A model generated the notes under the pieces. It made no database searches. It was not told the DNA's origin and worked only from the letters and a program-made list of their open reading frames with translations. From positions 1,178,001 to 1,242,000 of the forward strand of contig OZ037772.1 of assembly GCA_964035545.1 (NCBI GenBank): 64,000 nt of DNA, in the 5' to 3' direction. Of this stretch, positions 3,530 through 62,696 are shown one piece after another. How positions within the stretch are numbered: position 1 is the first letter of the stretch; each line of letters starts with the position of its first letter. The stretch is from Bugula neritina (Eukaryota; Animalia; Bryozoa). A program made the translations under genes and the position numbers.

Positions 3530-3553
3530 TTCAAACCATTTCACATATTCAGT

Positions 3554-4630: not shown

Positions 4631-4909
4631 TATGCTACCCAGAATACTCCACATTTGGTGAGGAACCAAACTCGTGCAAATGCTTAACTGCTAGACAGGT
4701 TATTCCTTGTCTAATACCACAGCTAGCTAGTATTCCTCGTCTATCTACAGCTGGCCAATTGTATGCAACGGATCGTTATAACGACTCTGTGTATTATTAT
4801 GTCTCTTCCTGTATATTATGTATTATTTTTGTCCACTGATGTATGCAATTACTATTGAATGTTTTTTTATATATATATCAGAAAGATGGCTTTCTGCTGG
4901 TGGGGGCGG

Positions 4910-5214
4910 TGTGGTGGTTCGTGGAACTACCAGCAGCACAACATGTAGGGTCGCGTAATTGACCCGGAACAATGGATAGCCAATTAGCGTAGTTGATAGT
5001 TAGCAGCAATTGTAGTTTCCCGCTGCTAACTCAGTCGAAGCTAGAGTGTGAAATAGATTAGATGTGTAACTTGTTAGAAATAATGTATCGTGTTTTTATG
5101 ATGTATAGTTGTGAATAAAATATACTCGTTCACTCGACTTAGCCTGGTGCAGTTCTATACTAGATAAATAGACTCTCTGGATAGCATATCAACCCTAAAC
5201 TGAAAATTATAACA
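4910..5214 (+). repeat. 3' LTR of Gypsy copy 1 (305 bp, subtype A with AATAAA at 5114-5119)
   Basis: TGTGGTGG...ATAACA, matches the LTRs at 23973, 31162 and 62697. Confidence 0.96.
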
Positions 5215-5398
5215 ATAGCTCAACGTCATGCGTTGTACTTTTCTCAGTGTGTGACGCATGTTGACCAAACGTAACAGCAGGGCAATTTTATTTTTACCGT
5301 ATGGTAAATGTGAATAAGGGGTTAGAGTTGAGGGTTCGAGTTTGGAGTTTAAGAAAACTTATAAACACCAGTAAGCCATTTTTTCCTGCTAGGCTTTT

Positions 5399-11000: not shown

Positions 11001-14000
11001 GATATGAGGACTGGCTGTAAGGATAAGACAGGTATTTACTTGCTGTTTCTATTTCTGTAGGAAGAAACTGAGAAATGTTACAAGAAACTGTTATTTATTA
11101 TTTTATTATTAAAGTGAGTTATGTAACAGTAAAAGAGGAAGTAAGTTTGTCAGCATTAAGGCTTGTGTGAGACAGAAGTGGATAGTGCAGGAGTTTATAT
11201 TCTCACTGTTATGTTGAATATTTAGTATATTTCATCCTTCAAGTGTCTGTTTCCTTGATAAGATGGTATAGGCATAGCTTTAACTCAGTGGTGTCCCACC
11301 TTCTTCATACCATTCCCCTTTTTATAAATGTTTTCTATTAAGTTTCCCCTCTTTTGAGAAACACTGTAACTTATATTCATAAAGAAAATCAGGGTACAGA
11401 TTTTTTCCAGAAAAGGCCAGTGTGTTTGACATGGACCAGTGTCTGCCACAGCTTCAGTTTAGCTTTGAAAGCATTGATGCTGGTATTAAAAGCAGTGAGT
11501 TGATGATTATACTCATTCATTTTAGGTTCAGAGTTTTTAGTACAGCAAATATATCTACTAGGTATTCAGGAAATATTTTATGGAGATCAGTTTGACTGGC
11601 TGCAACAAATTCCTGTTAGTTTTTGCTTTCAAGAAACTTTTTAACCTCCATTCGTAGTAGAAAGGGTAGCAGCTAGAGTAGAAAAGGAAAAGGCACTTTG
11701 TGTTTGACATGGACCAGTGTCTGCCACAACTTGAGTTTAGTTATAGTCATACATTTACATGTAACCTGGAAAACAAGGCAAGAGCTCAAAGAAATGAAAC
11801 CCCTGAAAAGCCCAAATTCCCTGCAAGGGGAATTCCCCCAAGGTTGGGAGCCACTGCTGTGATTAATGAGCTAACCTGTGAAATATTTCTAGTCCAACCA
11901 ACTGTCTAGTTATTACATAGTATGTGTATAGTGATACATCACCAACCTGTAGTTAGAAGTATAGTAGGTGCAGAATAAGTACAATATCATATCTAAAAAG
12001 GCTTTTATGGATCGTGTGATTTTATGTATACAGAGGAGACAGTAGCATCCCATGACTTGGCATCTTTGAGTGATTTGTCTTGTGAGTTACGAGAAAGTCT
12101 GACTGGTGGAATAGAGACTCTGTCTGAGAAAGTTGCAGAGTTGAATGACATCTCAAAGGATGCCTGGAAAGAACTGAGTAAAATAGAAGATGAAGTGAAG
12201 AAGATGGTTGCCAGAGTAAACTCTGTAGCTGACGCTCAGGTATGCTGACATGATGTCATCTAATGTGTTTCTGTTTGTCTGAAATTAGGTTTTGCATTTG
12301 GTCTTTGAGTTGTAAATAGAAATGAATTTCATTTGCCACTAGAATCAACTGGCCATTAAAGCTTTATCATTCTGTGTAAAAGTAGCAGTAGTCATTCATC
12401 ACATGTTACTCAGTGCAGAGGAACCTGTCAATACAGATGACTCACTCATCCTTCTGCAACTGTCAATCACTCACACACAGAGGTTGGCTGGCTGAGTGAT
12501 TGACAGGTGTCAGGAGGAGGAGACTAGTCACGTGATGTACTAGCTCTCTGCTGTGTATAGAGTGTCACGTGACTGAGTCATTGTACACTCAGTGGGTGAT
12601 CTGTCATTTTCATTTCAAGTGCAGAGGTTGTGAGGTGCAGATGTGGTTACACTGTGTTACTATCTATTAGATAGAAAAGATTAGAAAGAGAGCTACAAAC
12701 CTGAGGCTAGAAATATATGGATATTTGAAGAGCTGCACACAGATAGTGGATAATTATAGAATAGAGCTGGCCTTGAGTAAGACAATGGGCAGACAGTCTC
12801 TGCTGGACACAGTACAACATGCAGTTGATAAGTTCAATGATGCAGGGATTGTGAGAGACTACAAAGAGATGAGTGAGAAGATGGAAAAGGCTACAGATAT
12901 TGGTGTAATAGAGAAGTGTGTACTTCCAGACAGCATCTTGGTACCAACATGTAGGTGGAGTCTATAAATAGTAACACTAACTATAAATAACTTTCTGCTT
13001 GTAATTAGTTGAGTTGTTTTCACTGAGTATTTAATAGTAGAATAAGTAGATAGAGTTTATTTATCAGAGAATTGAGTTTTGTTCTACTCTCACATTATGA
13101 GACATTTCTGCAGTGTTTCAGAGTTTATGATGTATAAGTGAGCTGCTAAACTGTGTTATGCTGACTACCTGCTGTCAGTATTAACAAAATATTCTCACTT
13201 AGACCTGTGCATCACGTAGCAACTTGTAGTAACTACAGACTGCTTGTATTTAAAATATATTTTCATTTTAAGTTTGAAAAGCTGTTCCCACCTCCTCAGG
13301 TGATGAGATTCTCAAGTTATAGAATTGTTATTTTGTTGTTGCAGACAGTGAAGACAGTCTGGGACTGAAGCTGCTGCAGCCACCATCTTCTCTCCAGTCT
13401 GATGGACTTCCTGTACGTGACTTGTGTGTCTCAGTAAACATCTCAGCTGATGGACATCTCATGTGTGGGACACGAGAAGCTGTAGAAGTAAGAAATAGAG
13501 ACACTCTGGATACTATCAGCTCAGTGAAACGCACCAACACTACATGGTGGGGGGAGATAATCCAACCTGAAGGGGTGATGGTTGGCTGCTCGTATAACAG
13601 AGAGGAGAAAACAGTTGAAGTCTCACTTCTTGATCCGAACTCCTTTGAGAAGACTCGCTCTCTCTTCAAGCAGTCAGTAGATGGACTCACTTACTATAGT
13701 ATAGCTCAACACCACTCACTGCTCTGTATTGTAGACAGGAGTAAGAAGCAGCTGGTAGTCTGTAACCTAGTTGACAATAAAATACAGAAGTTCTCACTTC
13801 CTGGGATGAAGTTCCCTGTACCTGTATGCATCCTCCCAGACTCAACTCTCCTCATAGGAGACTACACTGTAGATGGTGCAGTGAGAAGATATAAAGTGGA
13901 GAACACAACTCTCACTCTAATGTGGGAGTTTCCTCGCATCTCACATCCATCTGGTATTTCCTTTGATCCAACATCTGAACTGATTCACATCTGTACACTG

Positions 14001-15172
14001 GAAGGACCTCTCCTCATCCTCTCACTTGAAGGTAAATACTCTGTTTATTATAGTAAGTCTAGTTATTTTATATATAATTATGTTGTAGTAAATAATATAT
14101 TTTAATAATTAACTGTAAACAACTTCCACTCATAAGATATATTATGATATTGTTAGTATTTATCAAGTCACTGATGTTATTTTTAGCTAAAAGTTATGTA
14201 TTAAAGAGTGTAACATGCTGATAGTAGATGTTGTATTCTTCATCACATGACTTGTAGCTAATAATAATATTAGTGAATAATACTGCCTCCCTGCAATAAG
14301 TTTATTTCCAGCTGCAGTAACGTGCAGGATGTAAGCACAGGTAAAAGTGTATAATATATTGTACAGGTTTAAGGTGTACTCTGTGTAGTGTGCAGTGAGC
14401 TCTTAGTAAACTCTCTATTCAGTCTTCCTTTCCAAGTGTTCACCTGGTAGAGTAGAGGATAGGGACTCCACACTGCTAAGTGAGTTGGTGCTGCAAGGGG
14501 TTCAAACCCACCCATCAGCGTGTCTAGTTAGTATACTATGCAAGTGTTTTACAGTAATTTTAGAGGTGCTCAGTCTAACAACTGTACAGACTGCCAGCTA
14601 CACATGAGTTATGAGTTGTAGTTTGACTTCAGTCTAGTGCTGCTATTGTTTTGGTCATCAGATAATTTAAATATAAATAATTTGATACTTTTTGACTGCC
14701 ATTACTGAGACTAGAGTAACTTGATGATGGCTTGTCGAGCAGTGTTTGCTGGTGGGACTCAGTTGGCTGTGGTTGGTTCTTGTCAAGTATTTAATATGTG
14801 ATAATGTTGGAGTAGCTGCATTAGTAGTAATAGAAGTAGACATGTGGGTGTGTTCATGCTAAGAGCCACAGGCTAAGTTTGTGGGTCAAGGTCAATACAG
14901 TTGTATAAGGAGACACTATTTTCTGCTGTTTGAATATTTACTTCATGCATGTAACCTGCTTAGTTCCATCTTTAAAGGCAGTCTGTCTGTTTCTCTCAAT
15001 ACACACCAACTGATACAATATGATGCTATTATTTACAGGTCAACTGGTGCTTACTGTTCCCAGAGAAAGTCTTGGTGTGAGTAGCTGGGTGTGGGACATT
15101 GCTGTGTATGACAGAGACACAGTGTTTCTAGCAGGTGAAGATGGACTGAGGAGATACACAATAAAATACTAA
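8072..15172 (+). CDS. TRIM-family E3 ligase (RING, B-box 1, B-box 2, coiled coil, C-terminal NHL-like beta-propeller), 619 aa
   Basis: Exons 8072-8253, 10464-10644, 10842-11031, 12034-12239, 12671-12950, 13345-14031, 15039-15172. All introns are GT-AG with matching phases (2,0,1,0,1,1); total 1860 nt ending TAA. C3HC4 RING CGYC...CLHVYCMRC...CAYC; B-boxes CDVC...C...CQQH and CEHH...CSKC...CMRC. Confidence 0.92.
8560..9036. mobile_element. Partial hAT-like MITE in a TRIM intron
   Basis: 3' end ...GGTTGGGAACCACTG and the ~100 bp before it resemble the end of 11286-11856; left boundary is approximate. Confidence 0.55.
11286..11856. mobile_element. hAT-like MITE in a TRIM intron
   Basis: Termini CAGTGGTGTCCCA / TGGGAGCCACTG; 8-bp flanks match only partially (old copy); internal ~45-bp direct repeat (11421, 11699). 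Confidence 0.65.
14290..14560 (-). mobile_element. Possible tRNA-derived SINE remnant in the last TRIM intron
   Basis: Minus strand reads GTGGGTTTGAACCCCTTGCAGCACCA (B-box-like T arm plus CCA) at ~14485-14511; boundaries approximate. Confidence 0.4.
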
Positions 15173-23300: not shown

Positions 23301-23972
23301 AACATACCCATACCATTACTGTTACAGTTTAAGTTACTATTGCCATTGTGATTGCCGGTAATGAGTAAATATAACTTAAATTTATATGACTATTACTATT
23401 ACTATTAGTATTACTATCACTTTCAGTACCGGTCTAGTATCAGTATCACCTTAATTCAAAATCAATGTATAATTTATCAAATTACTTTTATATTATCATT
23501 TATCAATAATATGTCTATCACTATGATATTATCATGATATTGATTTTTAATTTAAACATAATAAAATCATAGGTATAATCATAATGATAATCATAATCAT
23601 AATGCTTAATTTTACTTTTAGTTCAGGTTCAATGATTTAAGAGTAAGTGAAAGTTACTATAACTATTGCCATTGTGATTGCTAGAAATAAGTAAATATAA
23701 TTTAAATTTATATGACTATTAGTATTACTATTACCAACACTCAGACTTACTCGGACTCACTCTGTCTCTAACTCTAAGTCTGAGTCTCACTGCACCAGAG
23801 TGAGAGTGATACTGAATTACTATAACTATTAATATTACTATTAGTATTAGTATTAGCAAAGTATATCAACCTTATGATTATCTTATTAGTTATTACAATA
23901 TGTTCGGCATTGATGTTGAACTAAAAATATTAATAGTTATTTCAATCACAATGACAATGCAAATATCAATAT

Positions 23973-24278
23973 TGTGGTGGTTCGTGGAACTACCAGCAGC
24001 ACAACATGTAGGGTCGCGTAATTGACCCGGAACAATGGATAGCCAATTAGCGTAGTTGATAGTTAGCAGCAATTGTAGTTTCCCGCTGCTAACTCAGTCG
24101 AAGCTAGAGTGTGAAATAGATTAGATGTGTAACTTGTTGGAAATAATGTATCGTGTTTTTATAATGTATAATTGTGTATAAAATATACTCGTTCACTCGA
24201 CTTAGCCTGGTGCAGTTCTATACTAGATAAATAGACTCTCTGGATAGCATATCAACCCAAAAACAGAAAACTATAACA
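23973..24278 (+). repeat. 5' LTR of Gypsy copy 2 (subtype B)
   Basis: TG...CA, direct repeat of 31162-31467. Confidence 0.97.
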
Positions 24279-24279
24279 G

Positions 24280-24297
24280 TGGTGGCAGCGGTGGGAT
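24280..24297 (+). promoter_or_regulatory. Primer binding site for tRNA-Leu (AAG/TAG type)
   Basis: TGGTGGCAGCGGTGGGAT, 1 nt after the LTR, is the 18-nt complement of the animal tRNA-Leu 3' end ...AUCCCACCGCUGCCA-CCA. Confidence 0.9.
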
Positions 24298-24309
24298 AGT
24301 GCATCCAAG

Positions 24310-25269
24310 ATGGAGACTGAAAATGCTGAAACTCAACCACCGGCAATCGAAGGTGAGCGTAGAGACAATGCTGTAGAGACAATGCCTGTTAACCATGTAG
24401 TAGAAGAGCGAAGGGTTCCGCGAGAACTAGCTGAAGACCGCTACAGGTTAAAGGCGCCCACCTTCACGGGTGAAGAGGAGGTGGAACAATTTATCCAAGA
24501 GTTTAGCGACGTAATGGACGTCGCTCAGTGGCCCCCTAGGGTGGCCCTGCTGAAGCTTAGAATGGCATTGATGGACAAAGCCAAGCCCTATGGGCTGGGC
24601 GTAGACATTGATAATATCTTTGCTTCTCTGCGGGCCCGCTTTGGCCTCTCGACTACAGATGCCAGGGCCCGATTACAGAGGTTGCGGCGTGATCCCCGCA
24701 CCCCGCTGCGGGAGCATGCCACCGCGGTCATGAAGCTTGCACAGATCGCGTACAGCGACTTGCCCCCAGTCAACCGCGAGAGGTACACCCTCGACGCTTT
24801 CATAGCATCTGTCGACGATCTGGGTCTCCACCACCAGTTTCTAGCTAGGGGAGTCACCACCGTTGAAGATGCTCTGACTGAGGGGGAAGCTTACCTCCTA
24901 GCTAACCAAATGCATAAAAGTCGCGGAAGCTCCCGCCAAGTGGAGATAGACCGCGCAGACACGGCCGCGGGACAAGGGGAGGAAACCCCCGCCGCGGCTG
25001 CCGTGTCCCAGTTGGCGACGGCATCAAAAGTCACTCAACTGACGGACATGCTAGCTAAGCTGATAGCAACACTGACCCCACAAAACCCAGTGAGTACCGC
25101 CCCTGAGCCCATGCGGCCATTGGCGCCGCCACAGGGAGAAACAGTCAGTTTTTGCTGGGAGTGCGGAAATCAAGGACATTTCCGCCGATATTGTCCCTTC
25201 CTAAATCAGGGGTTAAACTACCGCGGCCCGCAGATGTTCCCACCTTCCGCGGGCCGACGAAACCTCTAG
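24310..25269 (+). CDS. gag: Gag (capsid-like region plus CCHC zinc knuckle), 319 aa
   Basis: ORF directly after the PBS; APTFTG...FIQEF capsid-like start; CWECGNQGHFRRYC knuckle. Confidence 0.95.
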   Translation: METENAETQPPAIEGERRDNAVETMPVNHVVEERRVPRELAEDRYRLKAPTFTGEEEVEQFIQEFSDVMDVAQWPPRVALLKLRMALMDKAKPYGLGVDIDNIFASLRARFGLSTTDARARLQRLRRDPRTPLREHATAVMKLAQIAYSDLPPVNRERYTLDAFIASVDDLGLHHQFLARGVTTVEDALTEGEAYLLANQMHKSRGSSRQVEIDRADTAAGQGEETPAAAAVSQLATASKVTQLTDMLAKLIATLTPQNPVSTAPEPMRPLAPPQGETVSFCWECGNQGHFRRYCPFLNQGLNYRGPQMFPPSAGRRNL

Positions 25270-25274
25270 GGAAG
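25212..25274 (+). promoter_or_regulatory. Predicted -1 ribosomal frameshift signal (G_TTA_AAC plus pseudoknot)
   Basis: Heptamer 25212-25218 in the gag/pol overlap; stem CGGCCCGC 25224-25231 / GCGGGCCG 25249-25256; loop TTCCC can pair with GGGAA 25269-25273; pol is in the -1 frame. Confidence 0.75.
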
Positions 25275-28200
25275 AAGAAACGCAGGTCACCCAGACGGGC
25301 ACCGCGTACTGGCAACCAACAGTGGCAACAGCCGCGACGGACCAGCAAGGGGCTTCGCCCCGCGGCTGCCTTTTCTATGCCCCTTCACAACAGATTCACA
25401 GGGCTACAAGTCCAAGAATCTGGATGGGAGCACACAAAGGTAGCTGAGAAACCAGCCTCGGCACCCCCGAGGCCTACCTATCACCGCCCCAAGAGACCTC
25501 CTTCGCGACCCAAAGCGAGGGAGGTACTCCCTGCGAGAGTCAGGCCTGAAGGGAGAGTTCAGATGCAGCCCCATGGGAACAGCTATTTCTTGCCCGGTAA
25601 ACTGGAAGGCAAAGCTGTTACTTTTCTCATTGATTCGGGCTGTACCACGAACCTCTTAAGCCGCCAACTCTTCGACACCCTCAGTGCTAGGGTCAGGGGC
25701 GAGATGGAAGCATACGAAGGGGAATACGGCACCCTAGCTGACGGGTCGTGCCTTCCCTTCTATGGTATAATTGAGCTGACGGGACGAGTCCGCGATCAAA
25801 CGATCCAAGAGACGTTCATCGTCAGTCAGCTCAAGGAGGATGCTATCCTCGGGATGCCGTTCCTTAAACGGCACGGATGTCACATAGATTTTAGCAGATC
25901 TGCAATGATGATGTCCGGGCGGGAACTCGCCTGCGTCGACAAGTTCGGCTGCCCTTTAGTGGGAGGTGTGCAAGTGGTACGCAACCGTACCATACCAGGC
26001 CGCTCCCGGGCTACCATTCACTGCAGGGTGAATAGTAGCCGGATCTCTGGACTCGGGGTGGTTGAAGGCGCGCACGAAAAGATCCAACTTGCCAGCAGTC
26101 TGAATCAGCTGACTGAGCAAGGGGAGATCTTAGTGCAGTGCGTCAACCCCTTTACCGAGCCTATCAAGCTCCCGGCTGGGTCGATGCTGGGCCGTTTTCA
26201 CTCTGTTCAAGAGGGAGACGTAGGCCCGTCGCTGAGTGATGCGACAGAGGCCCCCCCTCGACACCCTATTCAGGGACGAGGGGCAGTCCCAACACATCTC
26301 CGGGAGTTATACGAGACGGCCAGTGGTGGCTGCGCGAGTAACAGAGAGCGCCAAGCTATGGCCAAGTTACTACGCGACTACGGTGATGTGTTCAGCAGCG
26401 GAGAGCATGACGTGGGACTGACTGGAATTGTCAGACACGAAATACCGCTGACTGCAGGGACAGTCCCTGTCCGGCAGCCCACACGCAGGCTGGGGCCGGA
26501 GAAAGAGAAGGAGGTTAGCCGACAAGTACGGGATCTTCTGGACCGGGGACTGATAGAGCCCGCCCATAGTGCGTGGAGCTCGCCAGTCGTACTGGTCCGG
26601 AAGAAAGACGGCAGTTGGCGGTTCTGTGTGGACTACCGCAAACTCAATAGCGTAACCATACAGGACGCCTACCCTCTACCTCGTATTGACGAGTCATTGG
26701 ACGCCCTAGCCGGCAGCAAGTACTTCAGTACGTTAGACTTGCTAAGCGGCTATTGGCAGGTTCCTCTGAGTCCCGACGCCCAAGAGAAAGCGGCGTTTAT
26801 CACACGGGACGGTTTGTGGAAGTGGAAGGTGCTGCCCTTCGGGTTAACCTCCGCCCCAGCCACCTTCCAGAGGCTGATGGAACAAGTCCTTAGCGGACTC
26901 CATTGGAAGACACTGCTGGTCTACCTCGATGATGTCATCGTAATCTCTCCAGACTTCGAGACACATGTCAGTCGTCTGCAGGAGGTTTTCGAGAGACTCC
27001 GAGGTGCCGGTCTTAAGCTCAAACCTTCCAAGTGCGCTCTGTTGCAGCCGGAGGTCAAGTACCTGGGGCACGTTGTCGGTCGAAACGGCGTGGCAACGGA
27101 TCCCGAAAAGGTACGGGCAGTAGAAGACTGGGTCACCCCTCAAGACTTGACCGGACTCCGGGCTTTCTTGGGGCTGGTAGGGTATTACAGACAATACATA
27201 CCAGACTTTGCGGGCATAGCCCAGCCGTTAAACCGGCTTACCGCAAAGGGAGTGACGTGGCAGTGGACTCCAGTCGAACAAGAAGCGTTCGACCGCCTCA
27301 AGGGCTGCCTCCTAACGGCGCCCATCTTGGCCTACCCAGACCCCACTCTGGAGTACATCCTAGACACGGACGCCAGTGACCAGAATGTTGGCGCTGTGCT
27401 GTCACAAGTGCAGGAAGGCCGAGAAGTAGTAGTAGCCTACTACAGCAAGTCTCTCTCTCCCGCTGAACGAAATTACTGCACTACCCGCAAGGAGCTGCTG
27501 GCAGTAATCAAGTCAGTGAAGCACTTCAGACCATACCTATATGGCAGGAAGTTCCGGCTGCGTACGGATCATGCCTCGCTGATCTGGTTGTGCAGGAGAG
27601 CAGAGCCCTCTAGTCAGGTCGCCCGGTGGCTCGAAATCCTAGCTGAATTCTCATACCGGATCGAACACCGACCGGGCAAGAGACACAGCAATGCGGATGG
27701 GTTGAGCCGCCGACCTGACGGAGGTTGCAAACAGTGTCTCAACATCGAGAGGACGGATGGAGGTCCCCCTCGATGCGAGTTGGAGACGCTGGCTCATCAC
27801 GGAGCACCGTTTGACTGGGATCAAGGTCAACTCAGGCAAAGAGTTGATGAGTCCCCGGAGGATATACAAAACCTCCGCGCCAACCCTGTACTGGCCGGTA
27901 ATGTTCGAGAGCTGAAGAAGCTCCAAGAAGAGCTGCCTGGAGTCGTGGCAGACATCTACCGGGCCAAAAGGGAAGGGCGACGACCCAGCGAGGAACGCAT
28001 AAGACAGGGATGCGCCGAATTCCGGCTATACTGTCAGCGTTGGGACTCGCTGCGGATCGGGCAGGATGGGTTGCTAACCATCTCTCTAGCTGCCAGCGGC
28101 AGACACCCGGAAAGGAAGAGGGTAGTCTGCCCCACAGCCATCCGCCGTGAGTTGATTTGGGATACTCACAAGCAGGCCCACGCAGGGGTCAAGCGAGTGA

Positions 28201-29780
28201 TGTCCAAATTACGACTCCGGTGGTATTGGCCGCAGATGGAGCGTGACGTCCGGCTCAGAGTCAAACAGTGTGAGATCTGCCAGGCCAGTAAGCATAGCCG
28301 CCCCCCTGGTGAAGCAGGACGGCGGAGGCTATATGCTGGTAGGCCCTGGCAGGTAGTCGCTGTAGACCTGGTCGGACCCATGCCCCTGACCCCCAGAGGC
28401 AATAATTGGATCCTAGTACTAACCGACCACTTTACTAGGTGGGCGGATGCTCTGGCTATCCCAGATGCATCAGCCCCAACAGTGGCCAGGGCACTAGACC
28501 AACACGTATTCTGTTATTTTGGGCTTCCCGAACAGATACACTCTGATCAAGGCGCTCAATTCCAGTCTCAACTGATGAGCGACCTTTGCCACCTCTGGGG
28601 AGTAAATCAGAGCAGGACCACACCCTACCACCCTCAAGGTAACGGGGTGGTGGAGCGCAACAACCGGATGTTAGGTGATGCGCTCCGGAGTCTCCTCCTT
28701 GGACGAGGTCAAGAGGAATGGGATACGGTGTTGCCGCAAGTCATGCGTGCATACCGTAGCACCCCACACACCAGTACTGGTGAGACCCCAAACCTCTTGA
28801 TGCTCGGGAGAGAGACTCGTGTCCCTGACCATCTCACCTATCACGTTCCAGAGCAAGATAACTCAGTCCACGAGTATGCCAGTGAACTAGTGGAACGGAT
28901 GAAGGCCGCACACGAGATACTGCGTCAACAGCAGTGGAAGGTGCGGCATGAAGATTCCGATGAACCACCCCTCTATCAAAGAGGAGATAAGGTGTGGATG
29001 GTCAATTACCGTAGGCGCCGCGGACAGGCTGATAAGCTGAAGCCTAAGTTCGTAGGCCCCTACGTGGTCGTCGAGGCTATGCCCAATCATACGTACAAGA
29101 TTGAGCGCTCAGGACAGGTGTCTATCCAGAATGAGTCTCGCTTGAAACCGTATTGGGCTAGCCCCGGCGGAGTGGGAGAAGCCCCCCCGTTGTTAGAGCC
29201 CAGGAGGCAGACAACAACGCGCGGGCGACGGCGGCATGGACCTGAATACGAAGTGGTCATACCGCGGGAAGAAAACTTGGTGAGAGAGGAGCGGCAGCTT
29301 CTGGCAACAGAAGCGTGTCCGCCACCGCCAAGTCTAATTCCATCACTTCCAGAAACCGAGCCGGTTCCGGAAGTGCAAACCCCCACGGAAGGAGGGGCTC
29401 CATCCGGAGAACAAGAAGAGGTGACTGCTGACGGTGAAGTAGAGACGCCATTAGAGGCCCCTACTAACGAACCGGCAAGCGTGTCACCCCCCCTAGAAAG
29501 GGGACAGCGTACGAGGCAACCCCCCGCATACTTGAAGGACTTCGTATGTGACTGCGTTAAAAGCGGCACACATGAAAGTCTAGGGGAAAACCGTACGAGA
29601 AAAGAATCGAGCAAATGTGGGAGTTGTCAACACCACGGAAATATCAACTTTTGTATCGGCGGAAGTAGGAACAAAATTCATCCGCCGGGTGCACAAAGTC
29701 TTAATCACGCACCCCAACCACGTTGCTCGATCTTTTCATACGCTGATGCAGTCAAGAGTAGACGTGTTTCTAAGCAGTAG
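25212..29780 (+). CDS. pol: Pol polyprotein (protease, RT, RNase H, integrase), intact, likely translated as a Gag-Pol frameshift product
   Basis: Open frame 25152-29780 with no nearby ATG; FLIDSGC protease, YLDD RT, RNase H, HHCC and DDE integrase, GPY motif. Confidence 0.96.
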   Translation, partial: VKLPRPADVPTFRGPTKPLGKKKRRSPRRAPRTGNQQWQQPRRTSKGLRPAAAFSMPLHNRFTGLQVQESGWEHTKVAEKPASAPPRPTYHRPKRPPSRPKAREVLPARVRPEGRVQMQPHGNSYFLPGKLEGKAVTFLIDSGCTTNLLSRQLFDTLSARVRGEMEAYEGEYGTLADGSCLPFYGIIELTGRVRDQTIQETFIVSQLKEDAILGMPFLKRHGCHIDFSRSAMMMSGRELACVDKFGCPLVGGVQVVRNRTIPGRSRATIHCRVNSSRISGLGVVEGAHEKIQLASSLNQLTEQGEILVQCVNPFTEPIKLPAGSMLGRFHSVQEGDVGPSLSDATEAPPRHPIQGRGAVPTHLRELYETASGGCASNRERQAMAKLLRDYGDVFSSGEHDVGLTGIVRHEIPLTAGTVPVRQPTRRLGPEKEKEVSRQVRDLLDRGLIEPAHSAWSSPVVLVRKKDGSWRFCVDYRKLNSVTIQDAYPLPRIDESLDALAGSKYFSTLDLLSGYWQVPLSPDAQEKAAFITRDGLWKWKVLPFGLTSAPATFQRLMEQVLSGLHWKTLLVYLDDVIVISPDFETHVSRLQEVFERLRGAGLKLKPSKCALLQPEVKYLGHVVGRNGVATDPEKVRAVEDWVTPQDLTGLRAFLGLVGYYRQYIPDFAGIAQPLNRLTAKGVTWQWTPVEQEAFDRLKGCLLTAPILAYPDPTLEYILDTDASDQNVGAVLSQVQEGREVVVAYYSKSLSPAERNYCTTRKELLAVIKSVKHFRPYLYGRKFRLRTDHASLIWLCRRAEPSSQVARWLEILAEFSYRIEHRPGKRHSNADGLSRRPDGGCKQCLNIERTDGGPPRCELETLAHHGAPFDWDQGQLRQRVDESPEDIQNLRANPVLAGNVRELKKLQEELPGVVADIYRAKREGRRPSEERIRQGCAEFRLYCQRWDSLRIGQDGLLTISLAASGRHPERKRVVCPTAIRRELIWDTHKQAHAGVKRVMSKLRLRWYWPQMERDVRLRVKQCEICQASKHSRPPGEAGRRRLYAGRPWQVVAVDLVGPMPLTPRGNNWILVLTDHFTRWADALAIPDASAPTVARALDQHVFCYFGLPEQIHSDQGAQFQSQLMSDLCHLWGVNQSRTTPYHPQGNGVVERNNRMLGDALRSLLLGRGQEEWDTVLPQVMRAYRSTPHTSTGETPNLLMLGRETRVPDHLTYHVPEQDNSVHEYASELVERMKAAHEILRQQQWKVRHEDSDEPPLYQRGDKVWMVNYRRRRGQADKLKPKFVGPYVVVEAMPNHTYKIERSGQVSIQNESRLKPYWASPGGVGEAPPLLEPRRQTTTRGRRRHGPEYEVVIPREENLVREERQLLATEACPPPPSLIPSLPETEPVPEVQTPTEGGAPSGEQEEVTADGEVETPLEAPTNEPASVSPPLERGQRTRQPPAYLKDFVCDCVKSGTHESLGENRTRKESSKCGSCQHHGNINFCIGGSRNKIHPPGAQSLNHAPQPRCSIFSYADAVKSRRVSKQ

Positions 29781-29804
29781 TTCAAACCATTTCACATATT
29801 CAGT

Positions 29805-30879
29805 ATGTCTTACGACAACAGATCGTGGGGTGAGTTAACTATATCTTAATACGAAACTAGATTGCATCGCTCAGCTCTGACTCACTGAATCAATCGAGCT
29901 GGAGATAGGTTAGTGAAATACCGTGGTAAGAACTCAGTTTGACTTAGAGATTTTTATAATCTCATTGCAATACGGTTCTATCTGACTATTCACTATCATT
30001 AATCTCTACGAGGTAACTGAATTAGGAGTTGCCAAGCTGTTAGCTGACAACACAGCAGTGTAATGTACTAACACTGTTGAAACTTTTTCAGATTACACTC
30101 GACCCGCTACAACCAGGGTACGGGATAGAACACTTCCCGCTCCGTATCCGGAGGACTATGCTAGTGGTGACCGGCCTGAGCCACTACGCCGCCGTTGGCG
30201 GTGGGTGTCTCCACAAACCGAAGAAGAAATAGAAACAGCCTGGGGGTCCAGAGGACGGACGAGATGCCAGATCTGTGGTGAAGATTGCGCCTCTCACCGC
30301 TCCCTTAAACTACACGTCAATGCTCATCTCCTACTGACCTTCTGCCCCTGCGGGTACAATGATGTGTATCCCTACCCCGTCACCAGACACAGAGCGGCGG
30401 GCTGTTTCCCTGGAGAAAACTATGTGGTCGACGCTAAGCTGTACCCGGAGTTCCTCACATATATACGACCTCTGGTAAAGAAGGCCATGCTACTAGCCGT
30501 TCTATCCTCGGGGTTCCAACGTGTGTTAGACAACGCCCGCCAACAAACCCCGCTGGTGTCTGACCGCCCTCCAATTACCTACACCCCCGAGGAAACTACA
30601 TATCCAGAAGAAGGAGAGATCTCCCCTACCCCGGCGAAGAGACGGACCAGGTCCCCCAGTCCACCATTACGCCGCAGACGGACACCGTCCCCAGACCCAG
30701 TACGACTAGCTACAGTAGAAGAACGCCTCCTACGATTACAAGAAGAGTTCACCCAGCTGGCGCCAGATCTACTCAACACTACCACAGGACTCTTCCAGCT
30801 GAAGGGATCCGTATGCCGTATGAAACGGAAACTGCGTACATGCCAAGCCAAGCACCGGCGTGCCCAACAAGGACTCTAG
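29805..30879 (+). CDS. Gypsy accessory ORF3, predicted spliced: 29805-29829 (or gag exon 24310-24352) + 30092-30879
   Basis: Donors at 29830 (GTGAGT) and 24353 (GTGAGC) are both phase 1; TACTAAC 30066-30072; acceptor ends 30091; products 270 or 276 aa. Confidence 0.78.
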
Positions 30880-31161
30880 TATGCTACCCAGAATACTCCA
30901 CATTTGGTGAAGAACCAAACTCGTGCAAATGCTTAACTGCTAGACAGGTTATTCCTTGTCTAATACCACAGCTAGCTAGTATTCCTCGTCTATCTACAGC
31001 TGGCCAATTGTATGCAACGGATCGTTATAACGACTCTGTGTATTATTATGTCTCTTCCTGTATATTATGTATTATTTTTGTCCACTGATGTATGCAATTA
31101 CTATTGAATGTTTTTTTTATATATATATATCAGAAAGATGGCTTTCTGCTGGTGGGGGCGG

Positions 31162-31467
31162 TGTGGTGGTTCGTGGAACTGCCAGCAGCACAACATGTAG
31201 GGTCGCGTAATTGACCCGGAACAATGGATAGCCAATTAGCGTAGTTGATAGTTAGCAGCAATTGTAGTTTCCCGCTGCTAACTCAGTCGAAGCTAGAGTG
31301 TGAAATAGATTAGATGTGTAACTTGTTGGAAATAATGTATCGTGTTTTTATAATGTATAATTGTGTATAAAATATACTCGTTCACTCGACTTAGCCTGGT
31401 GCAGTTCTATACTAGATAAATAGACTCTCTGGATAGCATATCAACCCAAAAACAGAAAACTATAACA
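31162..31467 (+). repeat. 3' LTR of Gypsy copy 2
   Basis: Direct repeat of the 5' LTR, followed by TSD ATAT. Confidence 0.97.
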
Positions 31468-32407
31468 ATATGATCAAAGACAAATGATTCCAAGCAGTTT
31501 GAGTTGAAGGTAAGTTATAAGTTGAAGTAGTACGTAAGTGGTAGTTGATACTGATACTATCAGTGATAGGTCTATACTCCATACCAATGAACTCAATAAT
31601 ATTACCTATATATTACCATAAATTATATTACCATTAGTATTACCTATAATTAAAATATATTATTTCTTTTCCAGCTCAGTGCTTTATACCCTCTACTTAG
31701 TCTAATGCCGCGCGCATGACGAGAATGTGAGGTGAAGGTCACTCACAGCTAAAATCGCCAAGGATCTGTAATCCATCACTAGTAGTAGTAGTTCTAGTAG
31801 TCGTACTACCAGTAATCTGGCTTCGCTATGGCACTACGAAGTGAATGTTGACAAGACGCATGCATGTTTGCTGTTGGTAAACTAATTTTTACTGAATTTT
31901 AATCATGCTAAGCTGCAACCTATTTTCTAATGAAATAATATATTCAATAATAATATAATAAATATAATAATTATAATTATCATTATAATATTTTATCATT
32001 TAATTTTATAACTTTTACTTTTAGTTTTAGTATTTTGGTTTTACATCAAAATTTACATCATTATGATTATCATTATGATTACAAAATGAAAATAATTATC
32101 ATTAATCATTACCTTTTAATTTATGATTATAATTAATGTTAGAATTACCACAATTACAATCATAATGATAATCATAATGGCATAATCATAATGCCAATGA
32201 TAATCACAATCGTAACACTAATAATAATAGTAATAGTCAAACTCAAGGATTGAGCCAATGATTCAGATTGTCTAAATTTAATTATATAAATTTCAGCCTT
32301 GGGTTTAACTTTACAGTTCACAATTTTATTTTACATTACGACTGAGAGTCACAGTAAGACTAAGAAAAAGAGTAAGTCATACCTTTCTTGCAGTTATTTT
32401 CAAAGTT

Positions 32408-36669: not shown

Positions 36670-39279
36670 TGATCAACTCATTCTGTATATCTGTTTATTT
36701 TCTGGCTTACAGCTCTCAGGTTTTGCTTCAGTTTTTCAATCACTACACCACACTCTTTGTTCTTTATCCTATATTTTTCTTCAACCATTCTTCTCAATGA
36801 ATCATTGTAAGCTCTACTTTTTCACTCTGCTATTTTACTTAAGTCTGATCTAATTTCTTTTTATTTCTTCTGCAGTCGTATTTTCCATACTTGTACATTG
36901 TCAGTTTTTCTTTTTCCTTTTTGTTACACACTTGTTCTGTTACTATTTTTCGCACAAGCCATGGTGGTGTTATTAAGCTCAATGGTATTAATAATCTCAA
37001 CACAGTTTAGCACATCATTAATCTGTTTTACTGCCTGTAGTAATTTGACCCTCTCAATGTGCCTAAGGGCTCTTAGTGTTGGTCGATCATTAGATAGTTT
37101 GTTATGCTCATTTATAATTTTTCTACTAACACTTTTTCTACCTTTGAACTAGGTACTCTTAAAATTCTCATGGCTGATTTATATGCTATCTCATGTTGTA
37201 CTATAACATCCTCTATTTGCAAATTTAGCTCTTCATTATCTTCTTCACCAATTGATGTGCCTAGTTCTTGCAAGGTTCCTTCTTCAATCTTATGGAGTTC
37301 TTCTTCCATAAAATGCTTGTGTTTCTTCATAGTTCTTGCTTAATCCGCTAGTCTCTATTCGCTGATGTTAAACTCTCCTCTGTTTTTCAGCGTTTGCACA
37401 TTCTTTTTAAATAATTCTTTGATCCGGGTCTACAGAGCTCATACATTGTTTTTCTATAACCTCTCAATTTGGGTGTACTTTTGAAGTAGCATTCCATGAC
37501 AACTCTGTTGTCTTCTCTTAAGTATCTTCTTCTAGTTGTCCACATACCCACTGCCATACCAGACATGCCATGTTTAGTTAGACATACCATTAACGTCGTT
37601 GGCTTTATTAGTTCTATTTTAATGGATCATATTATTATTTTTAATTATTATCACTATCAGTAGCAAATAAATAATTTTATATTTGTTATTAGTTACTACT
37701 TATAAAAATTGAGTGCCACAGCTTGAGGGTTATAAAGTCAGTCTTAGTCAATGTAATGGGGATGCTGATACTGACATTTGGCTTCGAGCCCATACTTAAA
37801 TTGCTAACAACTATACCTAAGGATAACAGGAGTATTAAAATGTTAATTTATAAGGATTATAACCTTAGAGTGGAGATATTATTCTCAATTTATTTAGTTT
37901 TTACTTTACTAACTTTTATTTTATTCATCAACCTTACTGTCTATTTAAATAGCAAACTAAAGAATAATTATGAAGGCCTTTGAATTGAAGTACTTTTCTG
38001 TAGCTGATTAGATTTCAAGTATTAAAATAACATACTAAGACAGAATACCATTATATGAGCTAGATTAATAAAGTAAAGAAGATTTCTTTGTTAATCAAAA
38101 TATAGGTGTCACATATGCCTATTTTTAAGATTATGTTCTTATATGTGCTGTCTTTTTAATATTTTTAAAGTGCTACATTTTGAGGGTAGCCTACATCAAT
38201 ATGACTGCCCTGTAATTGCTTGTCAACTATAAGAGTTAGACCTATAAACTGTCTCATTTTCAAATTATCTTTACTTTTCTAATTGATGTTAACATGACTA
38301 TTCCTATTAGTATTTTGGTGTTTACCATTAGTAATGTTTGAACTAACATCAATATCATTGTTAATTTGTCTAATTATTCAAATTTTAATATTCATCATTT
38401 GTGAACAGTAAAAAAAAATTTGTCTTTCTTAAATTAATGTGATGCTAGATTAGCTACTCTAGCAAGTGTGTATTGTGCAATGAGTACTAATGCCATATTT
38501 TTGCACTTCTTGTTCTATATAATTTAGATTTAAGGTAACAATTCCTAAAGCTATCACATAATGCTGCTATCAGCTATAAAGATGTCACTGATCCAAACAT
38601 TGAAAACCAGCTGAGTGCATGCAAGGTTGAAAACTTATTTTCTCTGGTTAGGTAAGTAGAAAGGTATTTGCTGTAATTTACAACTATTTTGTTTTCAACA
38701 TCCTTGATGTTCATCTCTAAAAGATAAGTAGCACATAATGGTACCTGTTTTACTTAGCAGAAGAAATTATTGTCAAAGCTCTATTACTACATTTTAAATT
38801 GTATGACACTCTTTTGACTACACTTGATTTCATATCTCAAATAATTATATTTCTGACTCATGAAACTGTAACCACACACTTGAGAACAAAATAAATAATG
38901 ATATGGAAGCTTTCTTTACCTTTGTCAATTTAGTCAACAGCCAATGACTGAAAACACGTTTTGTACACTATTGATTGCCTCTCTATTTCCGCTATAAGGC
39001 AGAAACTTTAATCTCAAAATTTAAGACACTGGCAATTCTTCCCAATAATACGTTGTTCAAAACAAATATTTTTTGCCAAGTAATATAGTATTTAATTATA
39101 TTTTTTAGTCAAAGAAATTTGTTTGGTTTCTTGTGTCATCTTGAATAGCTTGTTATTCATTATCTTTTTCTTCGTGTTATGACTATGAGTGTATATAACC
39201 TTTGCTGACAGGTTTTTCCCCCATCAATATATGTTTCTCTGTTTACTCTCTAACAGTTTTATTTCCGTTCATTTTTTAG

Positions 39280-39489
39280 AGTTTACTAAAATGACATGGG
39301 TGTGCTTTGTTGTGGCTCCTAATTGAGCGCATCCGTTGAGATTATTGGAAGTTTTGTTGAAACTGAGCTGAGGCCTCTTACTCCTAAAGGCAAGAATTTG
39401 AGTCATCTTAGCTACTTGTAGCATATCAACATCGAACAGCACCATTCCACTACTCTAAGCTTAAGGTTTTGGCTGCATTAGATCAACAG
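39280..39489 (+). pseudogene. Decayed exon resembling the hAT C-terminal catalytic/dimerisation region
   Basis: Bounded by TTTTTTAG| and |GTAAGT; with one frameshift reads EFTKMTWVCFVVAPN..ASVEIIGS, similar to the hAT P-x-S/N-x-A-x-V-E-x-x-(F/G)-S motif. Confidence 0.35.
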
Positions 39490-39689
39490 GTAAGTTTAAT
39501 AGTTTGTATTTCGTACACTATTTCATGATGTCTGTTCAGCATTTACTTCGTAGCACACATTTATAGATTTTGCATTCTTTTAGTTTTTTGCAGTACAACT
39601 TTTCTACGCAACTATTACACTGTTGTTGCTGTTAATTGTAGTTTATTCTGCTTGACCATGCAATTATTGAATTATGTTGCAAAGGTGAT

Positions 39690-40085
39690 TGAGTCCTTTT
39701 ATTTAATTTAGTACACACTGGAAATCTGCAGTTTTTAGCCATTTTTACAATTTAGCTGCTAATGAACAATGCTTTTTGCTTAAAATTAGTGAGACATCAA
39801 GAAATACACCTAAATAATCAAGGTTCTTCGTAATTTTGCATGATTTCTCATGTTTTTTCCTATTTATTCATTTCATTTGGATTGCCTACTGTTACAAACT
39901 AACCGTGGCGATCCCCAGTCAGAAGTTGCTGTAATTAGAAATAGCATAGGAAATCAAAGAAAATTAAAAAGAGCCTTGATTATTTAGGTGTATTTATTGA
40001 TATTTTTTTAGTTTCGGGCCAAAACTCATGTTCATTAGCAAAAACTTGAGATCTTCAGTATGTACTAACTTAAATAAAATGAACC
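39690..40085. mobile_element. Palindromic MITE-like element
   Basis: Imperfect inverted arms, e.g. AAATACACCTAAATAATCAAGG (~39802) vs CCTTGATTATTTAGGTGTATTT (~39974). Confidence 0.6.
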
Positions 40086-43000
40086 AATTGCAGTAAATTT
40101 CTGCATTTTCTAATACTTCTCAAATTTACACCTAAAATAGTGCTGTCTTAAGAAAATGACACTAGCTGCTGTTTTCATGTATGTGCCCCAATTGTATATA
40201 ATGCTGTTGATTTGTTTAGTGTTTTTTCTATTTGTTTGTTATATAACTTTTCTTTTATGGTTGTTGCCAGCACCTAAAGCATTATTCATTAGTGTCAATT
40301 AATTTCTACTCACAGTTTTACTGTTACATAGTTTATAAAGCCCTTGTGTCAACTTTTCTAGATATCCTGGTTAAAATTGTTCTACTTGATGAATGGCATA
40401 GGGCATATGCAATAGCAAAACAGTTGCAGGCTGTTTTGGAAAAAAAATTGTGCATATAACCTTTATTTTATACATGTTATTTAGGCTTTGGTAGAACTGT
40501 TGGAGAGCCTTCTTCTTGAATAAAGCTACTCAACTTCCCGGATTCTACTTTATTGACATTAACCCACTACCTACAAAACGCCTTGAAATTTAGCTAATAA
40601 ATTATGTATTTTGTGAGTTTTTTTAAATGTACAATGTTATGTATAAATTACAATCAGTTTATATATATATACATGTCTTTTGCTATTTAGTATTACAGTG
40701 TAAAAAGCATTTCAGGGTTAACAATTTAATTAATTGGCCCTAACAGTAATTATGTATAATACAGATTTGCAGATGCTTTAAATGAACCCAAAAAGCTGAT
40801 GTTGTTAAACAGTGTACAAAATAGTCACCTCATATCAGCCAGACGTGCTTAGTCATTACATAGCATTAAAATCATATTATGAATGCAGTCAAGTTTTGAT
40901 ATGCATCCCTATTATTGATAGTTTGTGAACCAGCAATTAAATATCAAGAAGCAATATTACTAACCAATGTGCTGGTTAAAGAGTTTCAAGTTGTAGTTAT
41001 AGTATCAAACTATTATAATGGCATAAAAACTATCAGTTAAAACATCTTATTAATATTTACTACAGGAATACATATTATAGGTGTGCTAAAAATCTGGTAG
41101 AAGCATCAATTGTTTTAGATGTTTTGGATTTAGTATCTCTGTACTATAATGTAATATACAGAACATCAGGTGCTGTCTCCACAGTGCATTGATGGCACTA
41201 ATGAATATTAATACATGCAGGCAGTGTTGGTAATGATTTATTGAAATAGGAGTTTAAAAACTGTTTAAACAACAATGAAATGCCTGAGATTAGTCCAAGG
41301 AGAGGGGTATTTCAAGCTAGCAGATGAGCAATATAGATGCGAAAGTCTTGCCTAAAAATCATTATTGTTATATCTAGTCATTAATTTCTTGCAATAGATC
41401 TATTTCACTATTGAGAAGAACAAAATTAGCTAGTAAACACTGTAATAGAGTCAAGGCACTTTGGCAGTGCTAGTTTAAAATAAACCTGGGATAGTCGAAT
41501 AGCAGAAGTACTTGTTGATGCATAATATAATTATGTACAGCTTAAGATTTTGCAATACTGTGTTTTCAGTGAGATATTAATTTCAATAGCTACATTAAAA
41601 TAATGTACGCAGTGATGCAAGTGATGCAAAATCTTCTAAGATGCTATGACTGTAGCAGTTTGCTACTAGTCTCAAGTAACAAACCAAATAGCCTTTCTTT
41701 GTGCCATCATCCAAATGCCAAACAAATAACTCATTCACTCTGTAACAACAAGGTGGTCTCCCAAGTAGATTGTTAGACATTTCAGGCATTAATAACCAAA
41801 GGCTTTTCACTTTGGCATAATTGTATAGTTACCCAGATAAATAAATAATGTATTCATGGTATTGTAATTCCAAGCCATGCATTTATCTGTGAATGCAGCT
41901 AAGTATTTAATACGGCCATACATTTATGTACTATGTAGCAATGCCTAATGTAGCTGTCAAGCTTCTACTTATACTCATTTTACTGATGCTTTACTTCTGA
42001 TTACATGATTACAAACATAGCAGTTCAAACAAAATTATTTTAGATAGGAATAAATATAATGCTCCTAGCAAATGTTGTAAAACTATTTTCCAAAAACATA
42101 TACTTTGCAAACAGACTTTTCAGAAAATTATAATGCATTTATCATATTATTGTTTCATTTAAAAGTTATAATGATAGAATATTATACTTAAAACACACCC
42201 AAATTTTTAGATTCTTGTAATATTGTTAAACAAGAGTTAACAGTAAGATTGGCTGTAGAGTAGAATGTTTAGCTGTTTGTACTGAAGCTAACAAGTAACT
42301 GGCATTAAAAAGAGATGTAGATAAAAAGTGACAGAATAACAACTGGCTTGTATATTGGTAGTGCAAAAAGCTGTATATAACAGTTTAAACAAATACCCAT
42401 TAGAAGAAATGGTAACCCAGTACTTAAAATGTGGTATGTCATAATACATATTTGTGGTGTATTGACTAGGCTAGATCAACACATAGCACTATATAATTGC
42501 TTTAGTATTTACAATTAGTTTGTGGTCTGGTGGGATTTGTTGATAGCCATTGTCTTTATTAACATAACAGTTTCATAAAATTAGCAGTTTTCCTTATTCA
42601 CCTAGTTAATTTTTAAGATTTATGTACAATATTTACATATTAGGATATAAAAAATATCTTCAACCAGTGAATATCAAAATAATGATTAAAGACATATTTT
42701 ATGTCATATTCTTGTGGCAATCTAAATAATAAGCTGGTCTAAATTGTACTTGTGCAAACAGAACCAGCTCATGAATATATGTTGTCTTTTTTTAACTTGA
42801 CAGTTAATCTAATATGGATGTGTATTTTATACTTGCTTTTGTGTTTAAGGTGATAAAATTGCACTGGTAAGGTAAATAAACATTGCTTGTTTGGCATGCT
42901 TTTGCGTGGCATTGCATATTATGCTAAACTAATGGCCAGTTTTGCAGTAGCTTCACCATAACCTTCAAAAGAATGCAAATATCATCTAATTATTGTAAGC

Positions 43001-62374: not shown

Positions 62375-62696
62375 TGTAGTGAGTAGTGCAAAGTACAAAT
62401 ACGGGAATCGCCCTCTCTCTACTCTTGGAATACTTAGACCCTTATGTAGCAACCAATTAGCAGCTCCGGAAGATATGCTTCCGATTCACGTGACACTTCC
62501 CGGGTTATTAACATTATATCACGTTGTTGTAAGCGGAGGCTTGAAGTAGTAACATGTGTTAGTAGTTGACTGATGTATAGGATAATTTGATGTGATGTTT
62601 GTTTTATGCTCTATTGTGGATAATAAATATAATTACTCGACAGCTACCCTAGTAATTGCTAGCAGAATAACCAGCTAACTATACGCAAGTAAATAA
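62375..62696 (+). mobile_element. Probable LTR of a second LTR-retrotransposon family, interrupted by Gypsy copy 3
   Basis: Homology to the left arm stops after ATAT (62371-62374); new sequence begins TGTAGTGAG, contains CCAATTAGC (shared with the Gypsy LTR) and AATAAA at 62622. Confidence 0.6.

What the first reader, a model, noticed from the sequence alone, without database searches (positions are those of the whole stretch)
24310..30091. Retrovirus-like splicing programme predicted for the accessory gene, with two in-frame donors
Seen: ORF3 has no ATG near its 5' end but is preceded by a perfect branch point TACTAAC (30066-30072) and acceptor TTTTTCAG (ends 30091). Two consensus donors join it in frame: AAG|GTGAGC after gag codon 14 (24352|24353), giving METENAETQPPAIE-DYTRP..., and GGG|GTGAGT after a 25-nt ATG mini-exon just past the pol stop (29805-29829), giving MSYDNRSW-DYTRP.... 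The mini-exon is itself preceded by an acceptor-like TATTCAG. A 2-nt indel and an in-frame stop that differ between copies 1 and 2 both fall inside the predicted intron, not the exon. Inference: singly and multiply spliced subgenomic mRNAs as in complex retroviruses, which requires regulated retention of these introns in genomic RNA.
Basis: partly seen in the sequence, partly recalled or inferred. Interest (0 to 1): 0.8.

Follow-up and report, generated by a model that had tools for sequence, protein, structure and literature searches.

The report
Retrotransposon splices in a zinc-finger regulator
A young virus-like jumping gene, likely from an invertebrate animal, carries a zinc-finger gene where retroviruses keep their envelope gene and most likely expresses it by splicing from the start of gag (a relative's protein already holds exactly that joint), giving a predicted nuclear regulator of the element, while the proposed second, multiply spliced route is only weakly supported.

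Summary
The signals are real, at the stated coordinates. They lie in an intact, young Ty3/Gypsy LTR retrotransposon (23973-31467). The gag-donor splice (24352^30092) has independent support. Protein P0022 of a relative begins with 14 residues identical to a relative's Gag start and continues into ORF3 at exactly the predicted codon. The Gly-Glu encoded by the donor is kept in 57 of 64 Gag N-termini, and the acceptor codon context in 13 of 14 ORF3 relatives that reach it. No RNA junction was seen; the only RNA run was too thin. The mini-exon donor is plausible but unproven. ORF3 is not Env. It is an unnamed family with a tandem zinc-finger domain, basic linker and coiled coil, likely a nuclear regulator of the element. 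The closest precedents are errantivirus env splicing and CERV of Cer1. Verdict: new variant of a known kind.

The parts
23973..24278 (+). 5' LTR (306 nt, TG...CA), 1 difference from the 3' LTR; 4-nt target-site duplication ATAT on both flanks
24280..24297 (+). Primer-binding site (tRNA-Leu type; assignment recalled, not tested)
24310..25269 (+). gag, 319 aa, one CCHC knuckle; first 43 nt are the predicted first coding exon of ORF3
24353..24358 (+). Splice donor 1, AAG|GTGAGC, phase 1 (inside gag codon 15)
   Evidence: Gly-Glu kept in 57 of 64 Gag N-termini; joint present in P0022
25212..25260 (+). Predicted -1 frameshift signal: GTTAAAC plus a G+C-rich hairpin
   Evidence: sequence; hairpin -22.1 kcal/mol, z -2.37; frameshifting inferred
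25107..29780 (+). pol frame (stop to stop), PR-RT-RNaseH-IN order with C-terminal SH3-like domain
29797..29803 (+). Candidate second acceptor TATTCAG (also overlaps an initiator-like TCAGT; that motif is recalled)
   Evidence: use not shown
29805..29829 (+). ATG mini-exon, in the pol frame 24 nt after the pol stop, phase 1 at its donor
   Evidence: 3 of 4 listed variants synonymous
29830..30091 (+). Short A+T-rich predicted intron (262 nt, 37% G+C against 56% in pol and ORF3); starts with donor 2 GTGAGT
   Evidence: 9 of 9 indel rows fall here
30066..30091 (+). Branch point TACTAAC (30066-30072) and acceptor TTTTTCAG (30084-30091)
   Evidence: acceptor codon context kept in 13 of 14 relatives reaching it
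30092..30879 (+). ORF3 main exon: tandem zinc-finger domain (C59/C62/H75/H79 and C85/C87/H100/C105, counted from the split Asp), Pro/Ser/Arg-rich basic linker, C-terminal coiled coil; predicted product 276 aa with the gag leader
31151..31161 (+). Polypurine tract
31162..31467 (+). 3' LTR

Best explanation
This is an intact Ty3/Gypsy LTR retrotransposon whose third gene is most likely expressed like a retroviral env gene, by one splice from a donor inside gag codon 15 to the acceptor at 30091, giving a 276-aa protein with 14 Gag residues in front of a tandem zinc-finger domain and a coiled coil that likely acts in the nucleus as the element's own regulator. Shown: element anatomy, phase agreement, conservation of donor and acceptor contexts, and one natural protein record with the exact joint. 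Inferred: splicing in this copy (about 0.9); unspliced RNA must still be exported for Gag, frameshifted Gag-Pol and packaging (general retroelement logic); P0022 comes from a reverse-transcribed spliced RNA or a cDNA. Function is the weakest step. I commit to a dimerising DNA-binding regulator of LTR transcription (about 0.4) over a Rev/CERV-like RNA exporter (about 0.3) or another role. The mini-exon donor is a possible minor second route (about 0.5).
For: P0022 residues 1-14 are 14 of 14 identical to Gag P0118/P0283 and residue 15 onward is ORF3 (D-H-T-R, aligned to the window's D-Y-T-R); it is the only one of 167 ORF3-family proteins examined with a Gag leader. Gly-Glu (G|GT GAG) lies within the first 22 residues in 57 of 64 initiator-bearing Gag N-termini, in 12 of 13 clusters, although the leader varies from 10 to 18 codons and the flanking columns are 20-50% conserved (120 hits listed). 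Of 14 ORF3 relatives that reach the acceptor codon, 13 read Ser/Leu-Asp/Gly (YAG|N) there and the 14th is P0022. In run X2 all 9 indel rows lie in the predicted intron, none in the mini-exon or in 30092-30200 (rows are not independent). ORF3 differences between copies are mostly synonymous (5 of 7 and 6 of 9). No early Met in ORF3. Cys/His ligands are nearly invariant in 64 homologues; the domain model has pLDDT 92.9 and its best local matches are tandem C2H2 fingers of Kaiso and SALL4 (Z 3.4-3.5, rmsd 3.0, 51-57 aligned); profile hit to SALL3 fingers E 2.9e-6. [quoted passage not shown]
Against: No RNA junction seen: X1 laid 20 low-depth contigs, with no joint among the rows shown and none on 29740-30200. 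In X2 no GT-AG joint at 30092 among the 15 of 51 joint rows shown or the 6 of 27 loose-end rows shown. The joint rests on one protein record whose DNA I could not see; its library type is unknown. Internal deletion derivatives are common in this family (table 5; P0068, P0124, P0161, P0183). Gly-Glu could be kept for protein reasons, and phase-1 GTGAG also occurs by codon usage in pol. 21 of 28 close relatives have an in-frame Met about 20 residues into ORF3, so they do not strictly need the Gag AUG. The structural matches are weak (Z under 4) and say nothing on DNA versus RNA binding.
Confidence: 0.8

Rival explanations
1. Full complex-retrovirus-like programme: both donors and both acceptors are used, ORF3 comes in two N-terminal isoforms, and ORF3 is a Rev/CERV-like protein that binds the element's RNA and licenses export of unspliced genomes; inclusion of the 26-nt exon would act as a frame-shifting switch that limits ORF3.
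For: Second donor and acceptor are near consensus. P0021 starts GTG-Ser 265 nt before the acceptor against 262 nt here, with recognisable intron similarity. 3 of 4 listed mini-exon variants are synonymous, none hits its ATG, and a variant at 29774 improves the upstream branch-point match. ORF3 has basic Arg-rich and Ser-Pro-rich stretches. CERV is a precedent (PMC10309623, abstract and section 9).
Against: The doubly spliced RNA is out of frame from a strong-context gag AUG. No protein with a mini-exon N-terminus among the hits. One loose-end row (2 contigs) shows a diverged copy lacking the donor's first G. The Ser-Pro/Arg tract is present only in the window and P0002 among 29 aligned. Fold matches are to DNA-binding fingers.
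Confidence: 0.25
2. ORF3 is made mainly from the 3' end alone: an internal promoter near the pol stop (or re-initiation or read-through after the pol stop) with only the 262-nt intron removed. Read-through would hang the zinc fingers on integrase as a targeting module.
For: The mini-exon ATG is in the pol frame 24 nt after the stop; the segment is A+T-rich with an initiator-like TCAGT (recalled motif). A distant relative, P0193, has the pol C-terminal motif in one frame with the ORF3 domain (E 1e-5).
Against: P0022 shows the gag-donor joint. An initiator there would leave a 3-nt leader. P0193 may be a deletion product (1 of 167 examined).
Confidence: 0.12
3. No functional splicing: the motifs are chance or protein-level features and P0022 is a random DNA deletion.
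For: Deletion derivatives are frequent; no RNA junction observed; donor and acceptor share a 2-nt AG microhomology.
Against: A random deletion would have to hit the predicted donor codon out of 319 gag codons and the predicted acceptor codon as well (estimate, about 1 in 10^4 per gag-ORF3 fusion). The window's ORF3 has no start codon of its own yet is under purifying selection.
Confidence: 0.05

Closest known systems
Insect errantiviruses (gypsy, ZAM, Idefix): env from a spliced subgenomic RNA
   Same: [quoted passage not shown]
   Different: ORF3 here has no signal peptide or transmembrane segment (highest 19-residue hydropathy 1.24) and is a zinc-finger/coiled-coil protein; a second candidate donor lies just after pol.
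CERV of C. elegans Cer1 (Gypsy element with a Rev-like protein)
   Same: Accessory protein from a spliced RNA that shares its N-terminus with Gag, with Cys-rich finger, coiled-coil and basic motifs (PMC10309623, abstract and section 9).
   Different: CERV is 517 aa, five exons, H/M/G domains, nematode-restricted according to that paper. This ORF3 is 276 aa, two exons, sits in the env slot and has C2H2-like fingers. No homology was seen in any search here; a direct comparison with the CERV sequence was not run. RNA export function is untested.
Non-env ORF3s of bdelloid rotifer LTR retrotransposons (GDSL, DEDDy, CC, TM types)
   Same: Non-envelope cargo in the ORF3 slot, described as typically expressed from spliced messages (PMC5408684, passages).
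   Different: Those are enzymes or membrane proteins; the word 'zinc' does not occur in that paper's main text.
Complex retroviruses (HIV Rev/Tat, HTLV Rex/Tax, foamy virus Tas; recalled)
   Same: Possible small nuclear regulator encoded near the 3' end and made by splicing.
   Different: Not a member of Retroviridae (best solved-structure match is Ty3 Gag-Pol); no env; productive multiple splicing not shown.

Membership tests
Ty3/Gypsy LTR retrotransposons (Metaviridae) | Two LTRs (TG...CA), target-site duplication, PBS and PPT | tested here: met
Ty3/Gypsy LTR retrotransposons (Metaviridae) | gag with CCHC knuckle; pol order PR-RT-RH-IN; RT closest to Ty3 | tested here: met
   Ty3 Gag-Pol E 2.7e-127 against 5.7e-41 for the best retroviral chain
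Ty3/Gypsy named clade | RT phylogeny against reference clades | not tested
   no reference set was available to the script machine; clade left unnamed
Errantiviruses (env-bearing Gypsy) | ORF3 encodes a fusion glycoprotein with signal peptide and transmembrane anchor | tested here: not met
   no hydrophobic segment; zinc-finger and coiled-coil model; no viral fold match with E <= 0.001
Errantiviruses (env-bearing Gypsy) | ORF3 expressed from a spliced subgenomic RNA | tested here: met
   at the level of sequence signals and a relative's joined protein; no RNA junction read seen
Complex-retrovirus-type expression | Productive multiply spliced mRNAs | tested here: inconclusive
   the proposed doubly spliced RNA is out of frame from the gag AUG; use of the mini-exon not observed
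Complex-retrovirus-type expression | Element-encoded trans-activator or RNA exporter with a response element | not testable with these tools
   needs reporter assays
Cer1/CERV type | Spliced accessory protein sharing the Gag N-terminus | tested here: met
   P0022
Cer1/CERV type | H-M-G domain architecture and sequence homology to CERV | tested here: inconclusive
   architecture differs (against PMC10309623 section 9); no direct comparison with the CERV sequence was run
C2H2 zinc-finger proteins | C-x2-C-x12-H-x3-H finger | tested here: met
   C59/C62/H75/H79; zf-C2H2_4 in 7 of 64 members at E <= 0.01; profile hit to SALL3 E 2.9e-6. The second finger is a C-x-C...H-x4-C variant

The most novel reading that the evidence does not exclude
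A widespread lineage of invertebrate Gypsy elements has independently become 'complex': it encodes its own zinc-finger/coiled-coil regulator in the env slot, makes it early from the spliced RNA, and uses it to switch on retention and export of the genomic RNA (a second invention of Rev-like control after CERV), with the 26-nt exon as a frame-shifting switch; the same domain also sits in an annotated bryozoan gene, so it has moved between host and element.
Probability: 0.2. Interest if true: 0.75.

Novelty: new variant of a known kind. Interest (0 to 1): 0.48.

Why it matters
Spliced third ORFs are ordinary for Gypsy elements, but element-encoded nuclear regulators are hardly known outside retroviruses; CERV was the only invertebrate case my searches returned. 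Here an intact young element has exact, testable junctions and an unnamed zinc-finger/coiled-coil family with 102 cluster representatives at E <= 0.001. It gives a direct test of whether env-less retrotransposons control their own transcription or RNA export, and it marks a domain shared with an annotated animal gene.

Tried and rejected
The search for related loci found no locus with the ORF3 alignment (metagenome and viral contigs) or the Gag alignment (metagenome, prokaryote genome and viral contigs), so relatives' DNA was never seen directly. A search for short proteins with P0022 residues 1-75 found no candidate. RNA run X1 held 0.18 of the words and gave only scattered low-depth contigs; it is no evidence for or against expression or splicing. 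The one GT..AG joint in X2 (24298 to 25609, one contig, 20-letter side, purine-rich before the AG) was rejected as a likely deletion. Pfam gave no family above cut-off for ORF3; the ESM Atlas gave only hits under 0.9, mostly C2H2 clusters; Foldseek gave nothing at E <= 0.001 in PDB or viral structures; the whole-protein VIA search was filled by generic coiled coils. The two-copy complex prediction returned 'no answer' (score 0.06). Env identity was rejected. Earlier findings: none by place or sequence. Literature: seven searches returned no description of this ORF3 family; Repbase and most subscription journals are not searchable here, and no supplements were opened, so an existing annotation cannot be excluded.
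Full report
Setting. The finding lies in the middle one of three copies of one element in the window: a partial copy at 4-5217, a full copy at 23973-31467 and a partial inverted copy at 62693-63999. The full copy has 306-nt LTRs that differ at one site, an ATAT target-site duplication, a PBS at 24280 and a PPT. gag (24310-25269) overlaps pol in the -1 frame, with GTTAAAC and a hairpin of -22.1 kcal/mol (z -2.37) in the overlap. Pol has PR, RT, RNase H and integrase in Gypsy order, and its best solved-structure match is Ty3 Gag-Pol. It is a young Ty3/Gypsy retrotransposon. The host is not given; an animal, likely an invertebrate, is inferred from the one named homologue among 20 ORF3- and Gag-family clusters looked up, which is a bryozoan gene. 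No whole genome is held.

Observation. Those copies are 99% identical, so that last point is weak alone. Shuffle controls put the branch point plus acceptor at 24 of 5000, the ATG-to-donor mini-exon at 79 of 5000 and the gag donor at 75 of 5000 (tests chosen after the fact). The segment between pol and ORF3 is 37-39% G+C against 56% on either side.

Independent support for the gag donor. ORF3 has 63 hits in the 90% collection and 102 cluster representatives at E <= 0.001; Gag has 128 hits, 120 listed. P0022 (261 aa, one 5320-nt JGI/IMG contig) starts with 14 residues identical to Gag proteins P0118 and P0283. Where Gag continues Gly-Glu, P0022 continues Asp-His-Thr-Arg, the start of ORF3. This is the predicted joint, codon for codon, in a relative about 53% identical in ORF3. 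It was the only such case among 167 ORF3-family proteins examined. I could not see its DNA. The contig is three times the size expected of a spliced copy (1756 nt here), which fits an integrated copy with flanks or a long transcript; that is inference. Deletion derivatives are common in the family (table 5; four Gag hits joined to internal pol pieces), but a deletion would have to hit both predicted codons. Of 64 Gag hits with their initiator, 57 have Gly-Glu in the first 22 residues (49 Glu-Gly-Glu), 6 have Ser/Asp-Glu variants and 1 has neither; the motif is in 12 of 13 clusters, while leader length runs from 10 to 18 codons (the anchored column values at 0 and +1 are circular and are not used). 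Of 14 ORF3 hits that reach the acceptor codon, 13 read Ser/Leu-Asp/Gly, as YAG|N demands, and the other is P0022. In run X2, 9 of 9 indel rows in 29740-30200 fall in the predicted short intron (several rows may come from the same contigs).

Against. No junction was seen in sequencing data. The only RNA run laid 20 thin contigs and none over the acceptor region; X2 is of unknown kind, and only 15 of 51 joint rows and 6 of 27 loose-end rows were shown. 21 of 28 close relatives have their own Met about 20 residues into ORF3, so only the window's sub-lineage strictly needs an imported AUG.

The mini-exon. For: near-consensus signals; P0021 begins GTG-Ser 265 nt before the acceptor, against 262 here, with recognisable similarity along the intron; 3 of 4 listed variants are third-position synonymous in the ATG frame, and a variant at 29774 improves the branch-point match for the upstream acceptor. 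Against: one loose-end row (2 contigs) lacks the donor's first G; no protein with this N-terminus was found; and no upstream donor other than the gag one puts the ATG first (no GTRAG in LTR or leader). I put its use at about even odds. If used with the gag donor it would switch ORF3 off rather than make a second isoform, unless ribosomes scan past the gag AUG. Its ATG is in the pol frame 24 nt after the stop, so internal initiation, re-initiation or read-through are rivals; P0193 shows the pol C-terminal motif in one frame with the domain in a distant relative, though it may be a deletion.

What ORF3 is. It is not Env (no hydrophobic segment). Eight Cys/His residues form two fingers; seven of them are invariant or nearly so in 64 homologues. 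AlphaFold gives a compact 135-residue domain (pLDDT 92.9, pTM 0.85), a disordered linker and a 57-residue helix. The domain has no whole-fold match (best Z 3.5 of 48,161 chains); the rows with low rmsd are tandem C2H2 fingers such as Kaiso and SALL4, in line with the profile hit to SALL3 and Pfam zf-C2H2_4 in 7 of 64 members. The linker holds basic, NLS-like stretches. A Watersipora subatra protein (XP_067940964.1) has two copies of the domain and a C-terminal helix-like tail, so the domain was either captured from or donated to a host.

Mechanism. Shown: anatomy, phases, conserved contexts, one joined protein. Inferred: one LTR transcript is either kept whole (Gag, frameshifted Gag-Pol, genome) or loses the 5739-nt intron to give the 276-aa ORF3 protein. 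The protein likely enters the nucleus, associates through its coiled coil and binds nucleic acid through the fingers. I favour LTR DNA binding and transcriptional control (about 0.4) over Rev-like export (about 0.3), because the closest folds are DNA-binding fingers and the Ser-Pro/Arg tract is not conserved; neither is tested.

Comparison. [quoted passage not shown] Non-env ORF3s are known in rotifer elements and described as typically spliced (PMC5408684, passages). CERV of Cer1 is a spliced, Gag-sharing regulator needed for genome export (PMC10309623, abstract, passages and section 9). Splicing in plant elements is summarised in PMC3735527 (passages). PMC13524379 and PMC8220671 (passages) did not mention such an ORF. 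Seven searches found no description of this family; Repbase and supplements were not seen. The element works like an errantivirus in its splicing and possibly like Cer1 in its cargo, and is a member of neither.

Verdict. Observation confirmed; interpretation partly supported. New variant of a known kind, interest 0.48.

Noticed in passing
window 25212-25260: Likely -1 ribosomal frameshift signal in the gag-pol overlap: GTTAAAC followed after 3 nt by a G+C-rich hairpin (-22.1 kcal/mol, z -2.37).
   Followed up: partly
window 31980-62382: Large nested inverted repeats with 97-100% identical arms (for example 38411-39941 with 51706-53236, 42117-43385 with 50383-51651, 45744-46827 with 48842-49925): a roughly 30-kb palindromic duplication or an assembly artefact, flanked by element copies 2 and 3 in opposite orientation.
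   Followed up: no
window 4-5217, 23973-31467, 62693-63999: Three copies of one element within 64 kb. Copies 1 and 3 share the same 9 LTR differences from copy 2, and all three have different 3' flanks; copy 1 has a premature stop in pol.
   Followed up: partly
proteins P0191/P0278 (XP_067940964.1, XP_067940963.1): An annotated Watersipora subatra gene has two copies of the ORF3 zinc-finger domain and a C-terminal helix-like tail: possible domestication or source of capture.
   Followed up: partly
protein P0193: Distant ORF3 homologue whose N-terminus matches the pol C-terminal motif (E 1e-5) in the same frame: a Pol-ORF3 fusion lineage, another splice, or a deletion.
   Followed up: partly
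window 13323-14105: A 260-codon stop-to-stop frame on the + strand outside the element, in a slightly G+C-richer stretch.
   Followed up: no
window 53866-54239: Tandem array with a 22-nt period.
   Followed up: no
run X2 on window 23900-31500: 5868 contigs laid, many with internal deletions of the element: a very high-copy family with abundant non-autonomous derivatives.
   Followed up: no
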